Origin: Escherichia coli
Lineage (GTDB): Bacteria > Pseudomonadota > Gammaproteobacteria > Enterobacterales > Enterobacteriaceae
Strand: one strand, 5' to 3'
NCBI RefSeq assembly: GCF_003018255.1
Contig: NZ_CP027440.1
DNA length: 64,000 bases
Shown here piece after piece: positions 23,045 through 30,389 of this stretch (position 1 is the stretch's first letter; the number at the start of each line of letters is the position of its first letter). The translations under genes were made by a program, and so were the position numbers. The notes beneath the pieces were generated by a model. That model saw nothing but the letters and a program-made list of their open reading frames with translations. It was not told the origin of the DNA and did not search any database.

Positions 23045-25363
23045 TTACAACGTAATTGTCAGCGCATTCCCTTGAGGAGTCACCACCAGTCCCTGCTCAC
23101 TTTCAGCCTGCGAACCGCCTTGCAGACCATTTACTTTCACAATATTGCGCAAGCACAGTGTCCAGTTCTTCGCCTCGCCCGTACCAGTCACAGTAATCGT
23201 GTTGCCAGTACGTGCTGCTTTTAAAGTAAAGATCACCGAACCGTCAGCATCGGGCACTTCACAGACGGCTTCATGCCCGTCTTGCAGATTAAAGAGGTGG
23301 AATGCCGTACCTTCGTGCCACGCGTAATCGGGACGTTGATCGTTGTTGCCCAGCGCCAGTAGGGTGTTATCACGCACATAAACGGGCAGACTCAGGAAGC
23401 TGTGCTGCTGTTTATGCCAGCGACTACCGTCGAGTTCATCGTTGTGCCACAGGTGTGTCCAGCGACCTTCCGGCAGGTAGAACTGCACATCGCCCGCTTC
23501 TGTGAACACAGGCGCAACCATCACGTTGTCGCCTAACATATATTGACGGTCAAGGTAATCACAAGCCGGATCGTCCGGGAACTCCATCATCATGGCCCGC
23601 ATCATCGGCGTACCCCGGGCGTTTGCACGTGCAGCTTCACGATACAGATACGGCATCATGCGGCATTTCAGTTGCGTGAAGAAGCGCACCACATCACAGG
23701 ACTCATCATCGTAGGCCCACGGCACACGATAAGATTTGCTGCCATGTAAACGGCTATGGCTGGAAAGCAAACCAAACGCGCACCAGCGTTTGTAAACGTG
23801 CGCCGGAGCGGTATTTTCAAAGCCGCCGATATCGTGGCTCCAGAAGCCAAAACCTGAAAGGCCAATAGACAAACCACCGCGCAGGCTTTCCGCCATTGAT
23901 TCGTAGTTAGCGTAACAGTCACCACCCCAGTGTACCGGGAATTTCTGCGCACCGACGGAGGCCGAGCGGGCAAACAAGACGGCTTCTTCCTCACCAACGG
24001 TGTCCTTGAGCACGTTCCACACCAGTTCGTTGTAGATGTACGCATAATGGTTATGCATTTTCTGCGGCTCGGAACCATCAAACCATTGAACATCGGTTGG
24101 AATACGTTCGCCAAAGTCGGTCTTAAAGCAATCAACGCCCATCGCGACCAGACCTTTCAGTTTGTCGGCGTACCATTTGCAGGCATCCGGATTGGTAAAG
24201 TCATAAATCGCCAGACCTGGCTGCCATTTATCCCACTGCCATAACGAACCGTCCGGGCGTTTGAGTAAATAGCCTTTCTCTTGTAACTCTTTAAAGACAG
24301 GGGATTTTTGCCCGATATAGGGGTTAATCCAGACGCAGATTTTTAGCCCTTTCGCTTTCAGGCGGCGGATCATCCCTTCCGGGTCCGGGAAAGTCAGCGG
24401 GTCCCACTCAAAATCGCACCACTGGAAGGCTTTCATCCAGAAACAGTCAAAGTGGAAAACATGCAGTGGCAGATTGCGTTCCGCCATACCATCGATAAAG
24501 CTGTTTACCGTCGCTTCGTCGTAGTTGGTGGTAAATGAAGTGGTTAGCCACAGGCCGAAGGACCACGCGGGCGGCAGCGCCGGACGACCAGTAAAACGGG
24601 TATAACGATCAAGTACCGCTTTCGGCGTCGGGCCGTCGATAACAAAGTATTCGAGATATTCACTCTCAACGCTGAACTGCACTTTGGAGACTTTCTCCGA
24701 TCCCACTTCAAAAGAGACGCATTGAGGATGATTGACCAGTACCCCATAACCACGGTTAGTCATATAGAACGGAATATTTTTATACGCCTGTTCAGTACTT
24801 GTGCCGCCGTCCCGGTTCCAGGTCTCTACCGTCTGGCCATTGCGCACCAGTGCAGTAAAGCGCTCTCCCAGACCGTAAACTGTTTCGCCAACGCCAAGAT
24901 CCAGCCGCTCAAACATATAATTTCGTTGACTATTCGTGTCCTGCACGTAGCCATTATTTTTCACCTGACTACCGGTAATACGTTCGCCGTTGTGCAGAAA
25001 ATCCAGTGACCAGAACTCACCTTTGCTGACACGCGCGCTTAAGTTGCCACTTTTAAACTCAGCATAACGTTCTGTGTTTTCGATTGTGACCTTCACATCC
25101 TGCAAAATATTGAGCGGATAATGAGGACCGTTATTCAGCGCCCCCTGAAAATGCTCAATCCGTACACCAACAATACCTTCCTGTGGGGAGAAAAAGCGCA
25201 GCGTAAATAAAGGTGTATCAAGCTGCCAGGTACGTTCACGCACATCACGGGGGGCAGCATAGACCACCATTTCATTACCCTGCTGTTCAACCTCGAACAC
25301 CTGAAGCGGGTGAATCAAATTGAGGCCAGGTTGAATCAACCAGTTTCCGTCGCTAATTTTCAT
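23045..25363 (-). CDS. yicI: Alpha-xylosidase (GH31)
   Basis: 772 aa, matches YicI by length and synteny with yicJ. Confidence 0.9.
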
Positions 25364-25372
25364 TGCCGTTCC

Positions 25373-26755
25373 TTAGTTCTGCACTTCTTGAGAGGTGAAT
25401 TGTTGCTGGCAACGGCGTTTGCCCTGAGCCAGCTGTTCCATAACGGTTTTCAGATTGTGCGTCGTGAGTGAGTAGTAGCGTTTAGCGATAATCGCGCTCA
25501 GCAAGTAACAGATCGCCGGAACAATCGTGAATAGCGCGATAATGATGCTAATCGTGGCGCTGTTCTGCGCTTTTTCTGCCGCATCATATCCGCCATAAGC
25601 CAGCATCCAGCCGATAAGAGCGCCGCCGAAGGCCAACCCCAGCTTGAGCACAAACAGCGTGCCAGCAAAACTGATCCCGGTCAGGCGTTTACCATTGCAC
25701 CACTCGCCGTAGTCGACGGTATCGGACATCATTACCCACTGGATAGGTGTCACCAGTTGATGCAACACACCAATCACGAAGATGAAGACAAACATAGTGA
25801 TGCTGGCCTGCATGGGAACAAAGAACATCGCGAGGCTAATCACTGCCAGCAGGGCGTTCGTCCACCAGAAGATAGTGACTTTACATTTCCAGTCGGTCAG
25901 CGGTTTCGCCAGTGCGGAACCAATCAGGTTACCCACGCAATAAGTGGTAAGAAAAGCGACAAACACTTCCGGCGTACCCAAAATCCATGTGACGTAATAC
26001 ATCATCGCCCCGCCGCGTACGCATACCGCCAGAATATTGAAAATGGTCAGGAAACCGACAATACGCCACTGGTCGTTTTGCCAGATATCACGTAAATCTT
26101 CCCGCATAGACGTCGTTGTAGGTGGTGCTTCAACGCGTTCTTTAGTGGTGAAGAAACAGAATGCCAGCATCATGAATGCCACCACGGAAAGGACCGCGAT
26201 ACCGCCCTGGAAACCGAGTGGTTTATTATCACCACCAATTAAATTAACCAGCGGCATCATCAGCACAGTAGAGAGCATGCCTCCCGCGGTCGCCAGCACA
26301 AAACGCCAGGATTGCAGCGAGATACGCTGAGTCGGGTCATTGGTGATTACACCACCCAATGCGCAGTAAGGGATATTAACGATGGTATAAAGTAAGGTAA
26401 GTAGGGTGTAAGTAATTGCTGCATAAATCATTTTTCCGTTCATACTGAGATCTGGCGTGCTATAGGCCAGTACACAGACGATCCCAAATGGCAGTGCGCC
26501 AAACAGTACCCACGGACGAAATTTACCCCAGCGAGAGCGCGTTCGATCGGCCAACAACCCCATGCAAGGATCGGAAATCGCATCCAGTGCACGAGCGACC
26601 AAAAACATGGTTCCGACAAATCCGGCAGGAATGCCAAAAATATCGGTATAAAAGAACATCGTATATAACATTACGTTATCGAAAATAATGTGGCTGGCGG
26701 CGTCTCCCATGCCATAACCAATTTTCTCTTTAACGGACAACACTTCACTCTTCAT
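25373..26755 (-). CDS. yicJ: GPH-family glycoside/cation symporter
   Basis: 460 aa from ATG 26755 (MKSEVLSVKEKIGYGMGDAAS…). Confidence 0.85.
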   Translation of the reverse strand: MKSEVLSVKEKIGYGMGDAASHIIFDNVMLYTMFFYTDIFGIPAGFVGTMFLVARALDAISDPCMGLLADRTRSRWGKFRPWVLFGALPFGIVCVLAYSTPDLSMNGKMIYAAITYTLLTLLYTIVNIPYCALGGVITNDPTQRISLQSWRFVLATAGGMLSTVLMMPLVNLIGGDNKPLGFQGGIAVLSVVAFMMLAFCFFTTKERVEAPPTTTSMREDLRDIWQNDQWRIVGFLTIFNILAVCVRGGAMMYYVTWILGTPEVFVAFLTTYCVGNLIGSALAKPLTDWKCKVTIFWWTNALLAVISLAMFFVPMQASITMFVFIFVIGVLHQLVTPIQWVMMSDTVDYGEWCNGKRLTGISFAGTLFVLKLGLAFGGALIGWMLAYGGYDAAEKAQNSATISIIIALFTIVPAICYLLSAIIAKRYYSLTTHNLKTVMEQLAQGKRRCQQQFTSQEVQN

Positions 26756-27047
26756 CTGCTTTTCCTTGATGCTATAGGGGTGCTGAGACCGATAACGCAT
26801 TTTGTAAACCATCCCTGCGAGAGCGAATATTCCGATATCTGGTTATTAATTTATGATTCTTGTTTTATGTGATCGTGGTAGCGTTAATTTCGCTCATATA
26901 TCATTGTAAAATATGAGTTTTATATGAACTATAATGTTTTCGTGATAATACGCTGCGTGTATTAGGCGGAAAAAACTGATCTGGGGGATGTAGAAACTCA
27001 AGGAAGTAGCTATAATGCGCCCCGCCTCCATGTAGCAATCGAGGCGC

Positions 27048-27142
27048 GGAAGATCGTCGTCTCCGGTGAGGCGGCTGGACTTCAAATCCAGTTGGGGCCG
27101 CCAGCGGTCCCGGGCAGGTTCGACTCCTGTGATCTTCCGCCA
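27048..27142 (+). tRNA. selC: tRNA-Sec (selenocysteine)
   Basis: 95 nt GGAAGATCGTCGTCTCCGGTGAGGCGGCTGGACTTCAAATCCAG…TCGACTCCTGTGATCTTCCGCCA with UCA anticodon; TATAAT at 27011-27016. Confidence 0.97.
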
Positions 27143-27194
27143 AAATGCCTCTTCTGAACTCTCCCGACGTCAACAACACTCCTTCGGAGGCGAC

Positions 27195-28232
27195 ATGTCA
27201 GACAAAGACTTAACCCAGCCCCCAGCAGGCGAGTTTATTATGTTTGCCAGCGGTGACGGAAGAGTGCGTGTTGAATGTCGCTTTGAGTCAGACACAATCT
27301 GGTTATCCCAGGCGGCAATGGCTGAACTGTACGATAAAGATGTTCGCACTATTAACGAACATTTAATCAATATATTTTCCGAAGGTGAACTTGTTCAAAA
27401 CTCAACCATCCGGAAATTCCGGATAGTTCGCCAGGAAGGAAAACGTCAGGTTTCCAGAGAGATAGACCATTACAACCTCGAAGCCATTCTCGCTGTCGGC
27501 TATCGCGTTCGCTCGCCTCGAGGCACGCAATTCCGCCAGTGGGCCACCCAGACGCTTCAGGAATACCTGATCAAAGGTTTTGTGATGGACGATGAGCGGC
27601 TGAAGAATCCGCCTGTCGGTTCATCGGTTGTGCCCGACTATTTTGATGAGATGCTTGAACGCATCCGCGATATTCGCGCCAGCGAGCGTCGGGTATATTT
27701 GCGGGTGCGGGAGATCTTTGCTTTAGCTGCCGACTATCAGCCATCACTAAAAGAAACCACGCAATTTTTTCAAACCATCCAGAATAAACTGCATTTTGCC
27801 TGTACCGGGCATACCGCTGCGGAACTCATCCACAAACGAGCAGATGCCAGCCAGCCGCACATGGGCTTGACCAGTTATAAAGGTGAAGAGGTACGTAAGG
27901 GCGACGTGACGGTGGCAAAAAATTATCTCACCCAGGATGAGGTCAGCGAACTTAATCGCGTGGTTAATATGTGGCTGGACTTTGCCGAGGATCAGGCCCG
28001 TCGTCGTCAGCAAGTCTTTTTGCGCGACTGGCAGGATAAGCTGGATCAGTTCCTGCAATTTAACGACCGAGAGGTTCTACAGGGCGCTGGTAAAATCAGC
28101 AAGAAAATGGCCGATGAAAAAGCGCAGGCGGAGTATGTTCAGTTTGCCGAACAACAACGGCGCTTAAAAGAAGCCGAAGGCGAGAAGGATATCGCTGGTT
28201 TGCTACAGTGGAATAAAGAGTCGAAAAAGTAG
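27195..28232 (+). CDS. RhuM-family protein (selC-islet cargo)
   Basis: 345 aa from ATG 27195 with GGAGG RBS; N-terminus …EFIMFASGDGRVRVECRFESDTIWLSQAAMAELY… is typical of RhuM family; track ORF starts at a GTG inside selC. Confidence 0.75.
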   Translation: MSDKDLTQPPAGEFIMFASGDGRVRVECRFESDTIWLSQAAMAELYDKDVRTINEHLINIFSEGELVQNSTIRKFRIVRQEGKRQVSREIDHYNLEAILAVGYRVRSPRGTQFRQWATQTLQEYLIKGFVMDDERLKNPPVGSSVVPDYFDEMLERIRDIRASERRVYLRVREIFALAADYQPSLKETTQFFQTIQNKLHFACTGHTAAELIHKRADASQPHMGLTSYKGEEVRKGDVTVAKNYLTQDEVSELNRVVNMWLDFAEDQARRRQQVFLRDWQDKLDQFLQFNDREVLQGAGKISKKMADEKAQAEYVQFAEQQRRLKEAEGEKDIAGLLQWNKESKK

Positions 28233-28338
28233 CCCGGAATCCCCCCAAACGCCATACGCAAAACCATTTGGGGGTACTTATGGGGTTACTCATTTATCAA
28301 ATTCAAAATATAAACATTAAATCAATAACTTAACCATC

Positions 28339-28375
28339 AAATGCGACTCCTGTGATCGCCAAAATGCCTCTTCAG
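28339..28375 (+). repeat. Imperfect direct repeat of the selC 3' end plus flank (att-like scar)
   Basis: gcgactcctgtgatcgccaaaatgcctcttcagtga matches 27121-27158 apart from a 3-bp gap and about 2 mismatches. Confidence 0.7.
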
Positions 28376-28439
28376 TGATCCCCATCCTGCTTATTTCTGA
28401 GCAACCTGACCCTGCTGATGTATCTGGTAGTATGACAGA

Positions 28440-28661
28440 GTGATTCGTTTTTCTTGCCGAGTGTACGAAAACGTCTTCCTTGCCACCGACTATCAACCGT
28501 CACTCAAAAAAACCTCTCTTTTTTTCAAGCTATCAAGAATAAGTTGCATTTTATCTGCACCGGACACCAGCCATCCATATATGGCTTTTACCTGCTACAA
28601 AGATGAAGAAGTGCATAAATGTGATGTTAAAACAATCAAAGAAAAATTACATGCGCAATAA
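28440..28661 (+). pseudogene. Internal fragment of a second rhuM-like gene
   Basis: …FLATDYQPSLKKTSLFF…YMAFTCYKDEEVHKCDVKTIKEKL aligns to residues about 170-250 of the intact copy at roughly 70% nucleotide identity; no start or N-terminal domain. Confidence 0.65.
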
Positions 28662-28801
28662 TTTCACTATAACATTATAATCCATGGTGAAAATAACACT
28701 GCACAAGGATTGTCATCATCAAACTCATCGGAACTATTTTTTCTGTCGTCATTGGTGTAATACTGATTGTAAGTATCCTTTCAGGAGATTATTTTTGCCG
28801 T

Positions 28802-29299
28802 GTGGGGCATGGAACTTGTAAAGCAGCCAAAAGCGCTAGGCATTTAATTGAAAGTAAAGAGAAAAACAGAAGTAGTCGCGTCAAAGTCTTTAGCACGCAT
28901 ATTAATTTGAGTCATCCAGCGGCATCCTGGCTAGCAACTCAAACTTGCGCTAACAATATATTCAATCTACTTCAAAACAATAATGCCATTTATTTATTCG
29001 AAAACGATAATAAAATTGAACTGCGAATGGGGTATGATTCTTTTTTTTCTATTGAAACGATTGATAAAATTAACAAAGAAAACATCAAAGAAATAAAACT
29101 AAAAAATGAGACAACATATGTTTCTCTTCCTAATCCAACCATTTTAATAACCACGACATCAACACCTGAACGACAGTTTTCTATTTCTGTTCTGGATGAT
29201 GATAACAAAGAAAATCTACCTACCGATACCGCACCTTGTTTTACAATTGGTATTCCTGATGAATATACTAAAGCCATAGAGTTATTGAACATTAAATAA
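28802..29299 (+). CDS. Hypothetical protein in AT-rich DNA, no recognisable family
   Basis: 165-codon ORF from GTG in very low-GC sequence; no clear RBS; first in-frame ATG at 29027. Confidence 0.3.
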   Translation: MGHGTCKAAKSARHLIESKEKNRSSRVKVFSTHINLSHPAASWLATQTCANNIFNLLQNNNAIYLFENDNKIELRMGYDSFFSIETIDKINKENIKEIKLKNETTYVSLPNPTILITTTSTPERQFSISVLDDDNKENLPTDTAPCFTIGIPDEYTKAIELLNIK

Positions 29300-29465
29300 T
29301 TAAATTTCATATTGAGTTTTTTTAAATACCATATGAATAATTGTTATATGTCATTATTTCCTCCATTCACTAAAACTGATTGATTACTCTACTCCCTCAC
29401 CGTCATCGGTAGTGGTATCCTTAACGTATATTGATGAAAAGACAAAACAGTATGCAGAGGGAAAA

Positions 29466-30389
29466 ATGGGTTCCACCAGAAAGGGGATGCTGAACGTTCT
29501 GATTGCCGCCGTGTTGTGGGGAAGTTCAGGGGTCTGCGCGCAATACATCATGGAGCAAAGCCAGATGTCGTCGCAGTTTTTGACTATGACGCGTTTGATA
29601 TTCGCCGGTTTGATTCTGCTGACGCTGTCATTTGTTCATGGCGATAAAATCTTTTCTATTATTAACAATCACAAAGATGCCATTAGTCTGCTGATTTTTT
29701 CCGTGGTTGGCGCGCTAACCGTACAGCTCACCTTTTTACTGACTATTGAAAAATCGAATGCTGCCACGGCAACGGTGCTGCAATTCCTCTCACCGACGAT
29801 TATCGTCGCCTGGTTCTCACTGGTGCGTAAATCGCGCCCGGGCATTCTGGTTTTTTGCGCTATTTTGACATCGCTGGTCGGGACTTTTTTATTGGTGACA
29901 CACGGTAATCCGACGTCATTATCGATCTCTCCTGCCGCGTTATTCTGGGGAATTGCCTCGGCATTTGCTGCGGCATTCTATACCACCTATCCCTCAACGC
30001 TGATTGCCCGCTATGGCACGTTGCCGGTCGTCGGCTGGAGTATGCTGATTGGCGGTCTGCTCCTGCTGCCTTTTTATGCCAGACAAGGGACAAACTTTGT
30101 CGTTAACGGCAGTTTGATTCTGGCGTTTTTTTATTTGGTGGTCATTGGTACGTCCCTGACATTTAGTCTGTACCTGAAAGGAGCACAATTAATTGGCGGT
30201 CCAAAGGCCAGCATTTTGAGCTGTGCAGAACCATTAAGTAGCGCGCTGCTCTCTTTGCTGTTGCTGGGGATCACATTCACATTACCGGACTGGCTGGGAA
30301 CGCTGCTGATTCTGTCATCAGTGATTTTGATTTCAATGGATTCCCGTCGCCGCGCCAGAAAAATAAATCGTCCGGCGCGGCATGAGTGA
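29466..30389 (+). CDS. yicL: EamA/DMT-family transporter
   Basis: 307 aa from ATG 29466, 10-TM-like hydropathy. Confidence 0.85.

What the first reader, a model, noticed from the sequence alone, without database searches (positions are those of the whole stretch)
28376..29465. Second rhuM remnant and an AT-rich orphan ORF: layered decay of selC-inserted DNA
Directly after the att-like repeat lies an internal rhuM fragment (28440-28661, about 70% identical to the intact copy and missing both ends), followed by about 700 bp of very AT-rich DNA with a 165-codon ORF (28802-29299) that has no recognisable family and no good RBS. This suggests at least two successive acquisitions at selC with subsequent deletion. 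The AT-rich segment is of foreign origin and likely H-NS-silenced; whether the ORF is expressed is unknown.
Basis: seen in the sequence. Interest (0 to 1): 0.45.

Follow-up and report, generated by a model that had tools for sequence, protein, structure and literature searches.

The report
selC island relic with mis-annotated gene
The stretch between the selenocysteine tRNA gene and yicL in this E. coli is leftover DNA from old island insertions: a dead fragment of a rhuM gene, then a real but uncharacterised small membrane-protein gene whose annotated start is probably wrong; this is ordinary island decay, and the likely AUC start codon is the only unusual point.

Summary
Window 28440-28661 is a rhuM pseudogene fragment: 71% DNA identity to the intact copy, z=32 against shuffles, tblastn E=3e-12, with a 35-bp deletion and a frameshift. 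It lies just after a 30-nt copy of the selC 3' end (28344-28373). After it comes 33% GC DNA with an ORF that matches no Pfam, NCBIfam, PHROGs, PADLOC or PDB family.

Comparison supports serial insertions at selC. Other strains have further islands stacked upstream, and K-12 has a different rhuM fragment plus setC.

The ORF is not junk. It occurs in 1103 of 5426 complete E. coli genomes, always beside yicL, and one source names a member of its protein cluster Aec81. Diverged homologs give dN/dS of about 0.2. This constraint extends 28 codons upstream of the annotated GTG (28802), through a transmembrane helix.

An AAGGA motif, 8 nt, then a start codon is conserved in every homolog. The start is ATG or GTG in distant homologs and ATC/ATT in the Escherichia-type genes. 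The likely CDS is therefore 28718-29299: 193 aa, AUC start, N-terminal membrane anchor, four conserved cysteines. Its function is unknown, and H-NS silencing could not be tested.

About 15% of sampled carriers have a truncating +1 allele. Interest is low to moderate.

The parts
27048..27142 (+). selC (tRNA-Sec), the integration target. Its 3' end plus 12 nt downstream (27121-27154) is the sequence repeated at 28344-28373.
   Evidence: ARAGORN; Rfam RF01852, 83.8 bits.
27195..28232 (+). Intact rhuM (345 aa), the only gene of a 1.2-kb mini-island bounded by selC and the att-like repeat. No integrase is present.
   Evidence: PADLOC PDC-S05 E=2.8e-173. RefSeq calls it 'virulence RhuM family protein'. 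The same selC-rhuM-repeat layout is found in 844 of 5426 genomes.
28344..28373 (+). Degenerate direct repeat (attR-like) of the selC 3' end. It matches all 30 positions of the 34-nt original and has a 4-nt gap.
   Evidence: No third copy was found between 28376 and 29500.
28398..28661 (+). rhuM pseudogene fragment, equivalent to about aa 136-245 of 345. The significant core is 28446-28649; 28398-28445 is assigned only from a MAFFT alignment. It has a frameshift, a 35-bp internal deletion, and no start or end.
   Evidence: RefSeq does not annotate it in this haplotype.
28705..28709 (+). Shine-Dalgarno-like AAGGA, 8 nt upstream of the proposed start codon. It sits at the same position in all homologs (tGGA in one lineage).
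28718..29299 (+). Proposed true CDS of the Aec81-like gene: 193 codons with an ATC (AUC) start. It has an N-terminal hydrophobic helix (about 28724-28786) and cysteines at residues 27, 34, 77 and 174.
   Evidence: The frame is open from 28697. dN/dS is 0.16-0.41 for the 32 codons before the GTG and 0.14-0.21 after it. Met1 of the distant homologs P0036 and P0037 aligns with this codon. All seven E. coli alleles sampled have ATC here. AF2 predicts a helix over residues 2-21.
28802..29299 (+). It is probably an N-terminally truncated annotation.
   Evidence: The GTG is GTA in L004 and CCG in L006.
29437..29465 (+). Right edge of the variable segment. From about 29437-29441 onward the sequence is shared with K-12 and other E. 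coli, 25-29 nt before the yicL ATG at 29466.

Best explanation
Window 28376-29465 is the oldest surviving layer of DNA that accumulated at the selC tRNA integration site, in the E. coli lineage that carries this haplotype.

Shown:
- selC is followed by a 1.2-kb integrase-less rhuM mini-island.
- That island ends at a degenerate copy of the selC 3' end.
- Next come a dead fragment of a second, more diverged rhuM and one intact AT-rich gene. The conserved chromosome resumes about 25 nt before yicL.

Inferred history: a rhuM-bearing element lay next to this AT-rich gene early on. A later selC-targeted element with its own rhuM integrated upstream and created the att repeat. Deletions then removed the 5' part and the end of the old rhuM and everything in the newer element except rhuM.

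The surviving gene is real, and one source names a member of its protein cluster Aec81. I infer that translation starts at the AUC codon at 28718, behind a conserved AAGGA, and not at the annotated GTG at 28802. The product would be a 193-aa protein with an N-terminal membrane anchor or signal sequence, followed by a roughly 165-aa beta-rich domain with four conserved cysteines. A near-cognate start codon (about 1-2% of AUG efficiency in reporter assays) and 33% GC DNA both predict low expression.

The biochemical role is unknown. My best guess is a membrane-anchored envelope protein, dispensable in culture, whose domain faces the periplasm and is held by two disulfide bonds.
For: Layering:
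- The att repeat and the two rhuM copies are confirmed.
- Strains 2017.09.02CC and SCU-485 carry a primase-helicase island between selC and a partial selC copy that starts at window position 27113, directly before the same rhuM.
- Strains VTB97379v and C 691-04A carry other islands whose similarity to the window resumes at 28252 and 28190.
- K-12 has a different rhuM fragment (aa 121-187) plus setC.
- A diverged Escherichia-like contig (L004, yicL 94% aa identical) has selC, rhuM fragments, the same gene, then yicL.

The gene is real:
- It is present full-length at 95% identity or more in 1103 of 5426 complete genomes.
- Homologs of 73% and 61% aa identity sit in different genomic contexts.
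- dN/dS is 0.20 and 0.18 against them, with 12-27 stops in the other two frames.

The start:
- The 32 codons before the GTG encode a conserved hydrophobic helix and have dN/dS of 0.16 against L004.
- The GTG is not conserved.
- No in-frame ATG, GTG or TTG lies between the upstream stop and the helix in the window, nor before the helix in L006.
- AAGGA or tGGA, 8 nt, a start codon, then AAA/AAG align in all lineages. The start is ATG (P0036, P0054), GTG (Entomohabitans P0037), ATC (window) or ATT (L004, L006).
- AUC and AUU initiate at 1-2% of AUG in E. coli reporters (Hecht et al., bioRxiv 10.1101/063800).

Four cysteines lie at equivalent positions in all lineages.
Against: - There is no expression or proteomic evidence.
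- Only infC and pcnB are confirmed non-canonical starts in E. coli, so an AUC start has a low prior.
- Six of 40 evenly sampled carriers, including type strain ATCC 11775, have a +1 insertion after 29152 that truncates the protein. SCU-485 has several indels. The gene is therefore dispensable and is being lost in part of the population.
- The charge distribution argues against a periplasmic domain: net +1 before the helix and +6 in the 30 residues after it. By the positive-inside rule this favours a cytoplasmic domain, in which case the four cysteines could bind a metal instead.
- The order of the insertion events is inferred. The window's rhuM remnant shows no special similarity to the K-12 or L004 remnants, so its origin cannot be traced.
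Confidence: 0.65

Rival explanations
1. The AT-rich ORF in E. coli is itself a relic. The ancestral ATG was lost (ATG to ATY), the gene is no longer translated, and the selection signal only reflects history before inactivation.
For: There is no canonical start before the membrane helix. Truncating alleles occur in about 15% of sampled carriers and in SCU-485. The gene is absent from about 80% of E. coli. It sits next to an undoubted pseudogene.
Against: All three Escherichia-type lineages carry ATY, so the change predates their split. Since then they have accumulated dS of 0.8-3 with dN/dS of 0.1-0.2 and no stops in 193 codons, while the other frames hold 12-27 stops. The AAGGA and its 8-nt spacing are also kept. 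A dead gene would not show this pattern.
Confidence: 0.2
2. The database annotation is right: a soluble 165-aa protein starts at GTG 28802, and the upstream open frame is fortuitous.
For: PGAP annotates it this way in over a thousand genomes. GTG is a canonical start.
Against: GTG 28802 is GTA in L004 and CCG in L006. No SD-like motif precedes it (sequence). The 32 upstream codons are conserved as a hydrophobic helix with mostly synonymous changes against L004: 15.7 synonymous and 15.3 non-synonymous differences over 23.7 and 72.3 sites. Distant homologs begin with M-K, then a helix at the aligned position.
Confidence: 0.1
3. The gene is read from ATG 28684 through a shift in the T6 run (28739-28744), either by programmed frameshifting or by phase variation. 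That would give an ATG-initiated membrane protein.
For: Database variants (P0024, P0026, P0031, P0033) with one T fewer fuse MVKITLHKDCHHQTHRNYF to the helix.
Against: P0024 and P0026 also carry a second homopolymer contraction in the T run at 29041-29048 that truncates them. This looks like long-read homopolymer error. None of the seven loci sampled varies in the T6 run. The ATG frame is not conserved in L004 or L006, whereas the AUY frame is.
Confidence: 0.05

Closest known systems
selC-associated genomic islands of E. coli (AGI-3 of APEC BEN2908, LEE, selC-A of EAEC 042) and Salmonella SPI-3
   Same: Insertion is at the 3' end of tRNA-Sec with a direct repeat of that end. The 21-bp repeat in EAEC 042 is described in PMC7058095. 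A rhuM gene lies near selC, as in SPI-3 (own knowledge). The ORF's protein cluster carries the source name 'Aec81' (UniRef Q5I3I4). From my own knowledge that name comes from the AGI-3/selC record of BEN2908 (Chouikha et al. 2006, cited in PMC12928451; the paper was not readable here).
   Different: Here there is no integrase, no virulence or metabolic cargo and no large island. Only a 1.2-kb rhuM mini-island and a 1.1-kb relic remain. The relic behaves as fixed backbone in its lineage, present in 1103 genomes at 95% identity or more.
RhuM family (PADLOC candidate defence family PDC-S05)
   Same: The intact copy is a full-length member (E=2.8e-173). The fragment matches profile positions 164-241 (E=7.6e-6). 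A comparative-genomics paper proposed RhuM-like proteins as toxin domains that accompany restriction-modification and PrrC loci (PMC3710099).
   Different: The fragment covers under a third of the protein, is frameshifted and internally deleted, and cannot be functional.
E. coli genes with non-canonical AUU start codons (infC, pcnB)
   Same: A near-cognate AUY codon sits behind a good Shine-Dalgarno motif at the position where homologs have AUG or GUG. It is conserved across diverged lineages.
   Different: The start is not experimentally shown. The codon is AUC in E. coli, which is not among the confirmed natural cases. No autoregulatory logic like the IF3-infC loop is evident.
K-12 selC-yicL interval (rhuM pseudogene plus setC)
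   Same: Same chromosomal slot and same left and right junctions (27157 and about 29437). A rhuM fragment follows selC directly.
   Different: K-12 keeps a different part of rhuM (aa 121-187), has no att repeat, and carries the sugar efflux gene setC where this window has the Aec81-like gene.

Membership tests
RhuM family (PADLOC PDC-S05), for the fragment 28398-28661 | Significant match to the family profile or to an intact member | tested here: met
   PDC-S05 E=7.6e-6; tblastn E=3e-12 to the window's intact RhuM; DNA z=32.
RhuM family (PADLOC PDC-S05), for the fragment 28398-28661 | Complete, uninterrupted reading frame of about 340 aa | tested here: not met
   Only about aa 136-245 are represented, with a 35-bp deletion and a frame change. 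It is a pseudogene.
tRNA-gene-associated genomic island (selC) | Location at the 3' end of a tRNA gene, bounded by a direct repeat of that end | tested here: met
   selC is at 27048-27142. The repeat at 28344-28373 matches 27121-27154.
tRNA-gene-associated genomic island (selC) | Integrase or other mobility gene | tested here: not met
   No ORF other than rhuM and the Aec81-like gene lies between selC and yicL. Integrase- and primase-bearing islands occupy the site in other strains.
tRNA-gene-associated genomic island (selC) | Variable presence among strains and deviating base composition | tested here: met
   Present in 1103 of 5426 genomes and replaced by setC in K-12. GC is 0.33 against 0.51 for the window. 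The intact rhuM itself is not deviant (0.50).
Aec81-like protein family (uncharacterised; defined here) | N-terminal Lys, then a hydrophobic helix, a C-x6-C motif and two further conserved Cys; about 190-205 aa | tested here: met
   Alignment A8; cysteine positions 27/34/77/174, 29/36/81/188 and 28/35/80/182; profile E-values of 7.5e-12 and 1e-11 to P0036 and P0037.
Genes with non-canonical (AUY) initiation codons | Comparative signature: SD at proper spacing, no canonical alternative, and homologs with AUG/GUG at the aligned codon | tested here: met
Genes with non-canonical (AUY) initiation codons | Experimentally mapped initiation at the AUY codon | not testable with these tools
   Needs initiation-site ribosome profiling, N-terminal proteomics or reporter fusions.
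H-NS-silenced xenogeneic DNA | AT content well above the genome average | tested here: met
   GC is 0.27-0.36 across 28450-29500.
H-NS-silenced xenogeneic DNA | H-NS occupancy and derepression in an hns mutant | not testable with these tools
   No ChIP or RNA-seq data are accessible here.

The most novel reading that the evidence does not exclude
The Aec81-like gene is a functional gene that has kept an AUC/AUU initiation codon across diverged Escherichia lineages, while its distant relatives use AUG or GUG. That would make it a rare natural non-canonical start in E. coli, beyond infC and pcnB. It would hold a small, taxonomically restricted membrane protein with four conserved cysteines at very low expression. 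The gene is mis-annotated, 28 codons short and missing its membrane anchor, in over a thousand genomes.
Probability: 0.45. Interest if true: 0.5.

Novelty: new member of a known kind. Interest (0 to 1): 0.3.

Why it matters
The main result is housekeeping.

Two points have some wider use. First, a hypothetical protein annotated in roughly a fifth of complete E. coli genomes, including the type strain lineage and major ExPEC lineages, is probably annotated with the wrong start. The annotation drops its membrane anchor because gene callers do not consider AUC. Second, if the AUC start is real, it adds a natural, evolutionarily conserved near-cognate start to a very short list in E. coli, and it could be tested with a simple reporter.

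The protein family is tiny: Escherichia, Entomohabitans and a few metagenome contigs out of 1.8 billion representative proteins. It has no known fold relatives, so it is a clean example of a taxonomically restricted gene under selection.

Tried and rejected
- Family searches on the 165-aa and 193-aa forms and on the distant homologs found nothing significant in Pfam, NCBIfam, PHROGs, PADLOC or PDB sequences. A 14-bit FliL hit on P0037 (E=0.031) covers the membrane helix and was treated as noise.
- Rfam found only tRNA-Sec in 26700-29700.
- Promoter and terminator scans were at chance level, and no promoter-like site lies upstream of the gene.
- I tested whether the window's rhuM remnant is the same relic as the K-12 or L004 remnants. 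It shows no specific similarity to either, so a shared origin is unproven.
- I looked for a third att-like repeat marking the right end of the oldest layer. None was found.
- tblastn against phage and plasmid collections gave no real hits. The single 'plasmid' hit is a 4.9-Mb record, i.e. chromosome-sized.
- The species-representative genome scan returned only Entomohabitans teleogrylli.
- A rhuM-plus-ORF two-gene module was considered, because rhuM fragments precede the gene in both the window and L004. It was not adopted, because the other three contexts lack rhuM.
- The Chouikha 2006 AGI-3 paper could not be read.

Full report
**Setting.** The window is an Escherichia coli chromosome segment. 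The local gene order is yicI (23045-25363, -), yicJ (25373-26812, -), tRNA-Sec selC (27048-27142, +), an intact rhuM (27195-28232, +), the finding (28376-29465), yicL (29466-30389, +) and nlpA (-). The finding lies in the variable slot between selC and yicL.

**Check of the observation.**
- A 30-nt copy of the selC 3' end lies at 28344-28373. It matches 27121-27154 at all 30 positions apart from a 4-nt gap.
- Immediately downstream, 28440-28661 aligns with 27690-27930 of the intact rhuM at 71.1% identity over 201 ungapped columns. There is one 35-bp deletion, and the score is z=32 against shuffles.
- At protein level the intact RhuM matches aa 166-245 at 28446-28649 (E=3e-12), with a second HSP in another frame.
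- The 73-aa translation hits the PADLOC RhuM family PDC-S05 at E=7.6e-6, against 2.8e-173 for the intact copy.
- A MAFFT alignment suggests weaker similarity back to about 28398.
- GC is 0.40 in the fragment and 0.33 over 28662-29465, with 300-nt windows down to 0.27. rhuM, yicL and the whole window are at about 0.50.
- The 165-codon ORF (28802-29299, GTG start) is there. PGAP annotates it identically as 'hypothetical protein' in other genomes.
- It has no significant match in Pfam, NCBIfam, PHROGs, PADLOC or PDB sequences.

**Distribution and layering.** The segment 28200-29500 is present, at 80% coverage or more, in 1102 of 5426 complete E. coli genomes. The ORF region itself is in 1103, always full-length, at 95% identity or more, and beside yicL. 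Carriers include the type strain ATCC 11775, a strain named ST95-32 and an O6:K2:H1 strain. The exact layout of the window, selC then rhuM then the repeat, occurs in 844 genomes.

Other carriers show additional layers:
- Strains 2017.09.02CC and SCU-485 have a primase-helicase island between selC and a partial selC copy. That copy begins at the equivalent of 27113 and directly precedes the same rhuM.
- Strain VTB97379v has a CP4-like island with a YeeU/CbtA toxin-antitoxin pair. Its similarity to the window resumes at 28252.
- Strain C 691-04A has an island with a retron-associated HNH gene that ends at 28190, inside the end of rhuM.
- K-12 has neither the att repeat nor this ORF. There selC is followed by a different rhuM fragment (aa 121-187, annotated as a rhuM pseudogene) and then setC. 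Similarity to the window resumes only at about 29437-29441, 25-29 nt before the yicL start.

I found no third att copy at the right edge. I also found no specific similarity between the window's remnant and the K-12 or L004 remnants. The order of events is therefore inferred, not shown.

**The ORF is a real gene and extends further upstream.** A search of 5.8 billion proteins found E. coli copies plus two diverged homologs: P0005 at 73% and P0015 at 61% identity over the 197 aligned residues. P0005 lies on a contig with the selC end, a fliB-like methylase gene, rhuM fragments, the ORF, and a yicL that is 94% aa identical. This looks like a related Escherichia lineage. P0015 lies near an integrase gene and has no yicL.

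The three sequences align without gaps over 197 codons. Nei-Gojobori dN/dS is 0.20 (window vs L004), 0.18 (window vs L006) and 0.09 (L004 vs L006), with dS of 0.8 to above 3. The two alternative frames contain 12-27 stops.

The frame is also open upstream of the GTG to 28697. There it encodes RIVIIKLIGTIFSVVIGVILIVSILSGDYFCR, a hydrophobic helix conserved in both homologs. These 32 codons give dN/dS of 0.16 against L004. The annotated GTG is GTA in L004 and CCG in L006.

**Start codon.** No in-frame ATG, GTG or TTG lies between the upstream stop and the helix in the window, nor before the helix in L006. A profile search of 1.84 billion representative proteins added only two distant relatives. 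These are P0036 (205 aa, from a metagenome) and P0037 (199 aa, Entomohabitans teleogrylli, between a ygiQ-like radical SAM gene and dkgA). A later search added P0054, a third relative close to P0036. All three begin M-K-(K/G), followed by the helix and the same C-x6-C motif. Their first codon aligns with the window's ATC at 28718.

The DNA upstream shows the same pattern in every lineage: AAGGA (tGGA in P0036 and P0054), 8 nt, a start codon, then AAA/AAG. The start is ATG in P0036 and P0054, GTG in Entomohabitans, ATC in all seven E. coli alleles sampled, and ATT in L004 and L006.

The most economical reading is that the CDS is 28718-29299 (193 aa) and initiates at AUC. In reporter assays AUC and AUU initiate at 1-2% of AUG, and only infC and pcnB are confirmed natural non-canonical starts in E. 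coli (bioRxiv 10.1101/063800). The claim is therefore unusual. It rests on comparative evidence only, and I put it at roughly even odds.

Topology is ambiguous. Four conserved cysteines and a signal-like N-terminus suggest a periplasmic, disulfide-bonded domain. The charge balance points the other way: +1 before the helix and +6 in the 30 residues after it, which by the positive-inside rule suggests a cytoplasmic domain.

Neighbouring genes differ in all five contexts, so there is no conserved partner. The gene is absent from the phage and plasmid collections. Its function remains unknown.

**Signs of loss.** Six of 40 evenly sampled carriers have a match one base longer. In ATCC 11775 the extra base is an A inserted after 29152, which truncates the protein. 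RefSeq annotates 122 aa from the GTG there, and the protein cluster member that a source names 'Aec81' is also 122 aa. SCU-485 has several indels and no annotated plus-strand CDS. The gene is thus dispensable and inactivated in some lineages, while intact in most.

**Comparison with what is known.** The locus behaves like other selC-associated islands. The name 'Aec81' links it, from my own knowledge, to the AGI-3/selC record of APEC BEN2908 (Chouikha et al. 2006, cited in PMC12928451). That paper could not be read here. Comparative genomics has proposed RhuM-like proteins as toxin domains that accompany restriction-modification loci (PMC3710099), and they form the PADLOC candidate family PDC-S05. 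The fragment here is plainly non-functional.

**Verdict.** The finding is real and its interpretation is mostly right, but this is an ordinary kind of locus, already present and annotated in many genomes. The additions from this analysis are as follows. The 'orphan ORF' is a conserved gene under purifying selection. It belongs to a very small enterobacterial family. Its annotated start is probably 28 codons too far downstream, which cuts off a membrane anchor. Its likely initiation codon is AUC. H-NS silencing and expression remain untested.

Noticed in passing
L001 (NZ_AP025214.2) 1-2995 and L014 (NZ_CP053245.1) 1-1000; equivalent to an insertion at window 27113: In some carriers a primase-helicase and DUF5375 island lies between the true selC and a partial selC copy that directly precedes rhuM. 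These genomes therefore hold three selC-end copies in tandem, and the window represents the empty site for that island.
   Followed up: partly
L003 (K-12 BW2952) 2177-2338: K-12 carries a different rhuM fragment (aa 121-187 of the intact protein, about 76% DNA identity) directly after selC, followed by about 400 bp of AT-rich DNA and setC. It shows no specific similarity to the window's remnant.
   Followed up: yes
L004 187-1404 (Logan SRR7532981 contig) and L012 6002-7216 (E. coli CUPF09): A fliB-like flagellin lysine-N-methylase gene sits at the selC-yicL slot on the minus strand. In L004 it is inserted between the first few codons and the later fragments of a rhuM gene. In CUPF09 it sits next to yicL without the Aec81-like gene, and yicH rather than yicI/yicJ lies before selC.
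   Followed up: partly
window 28739-28744 (T6) and 29041-29048 (T8): Database variants with one T fewer in the T6 run fuse ATG 28684 to the membrane helix, and two of them (P0024, P0026) also carry a contraction in the second T run. These are probably long-read homopolymer errors. The window's uninterrupted T8 is itself unusual: five of the six other alleles sampled have a C at 29047.
   Followed up: partly
window 29152 (equivalent position in L013, ATCC 11775): An A insertion truncates the Aec81-like protein. Six of 40 evenly sampled carriers have a match one base longer, and the insertion was verified in ATCC 11775. It is not in a long homopolymer, so it is probably a real lineage-specific inactivation.
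   Followed up: partly
protein cluster of P0001: Some 58-90-aa fragments of this protein carry the source name 'pas-pac-pac sensing his kinase'. This is an evident annotation error that has spread among E. coli records.
   Followed up: no
window 28233-28343: The 110 bp between the rhuM stop and the att-like repeat contains a C6/G5 inverted repeat (ccccccaaacg...catttggggg). It is retained at the end of unrelated islands in other strains, where similarity to the window resumes at 28252 or 28190. It may be a conserved island terminus or the rhuM terminator.
   Followed up: no
window 28693-28666, minus strand: A promoter-like site with an extended -10 (TTTTCA, 16 nt, TATAGT, preceded by TG) points away from the Aec81-like gene and towards the rhuM remnant. 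The overall count of such sites is at chance level.
   Followed up: no
window 34900-35350 and 22600-23050: Two further AT-rich stretches (GC 0.31-0.38) appear in the composition profile outside the finding. They were not examined.
   Followed up: no
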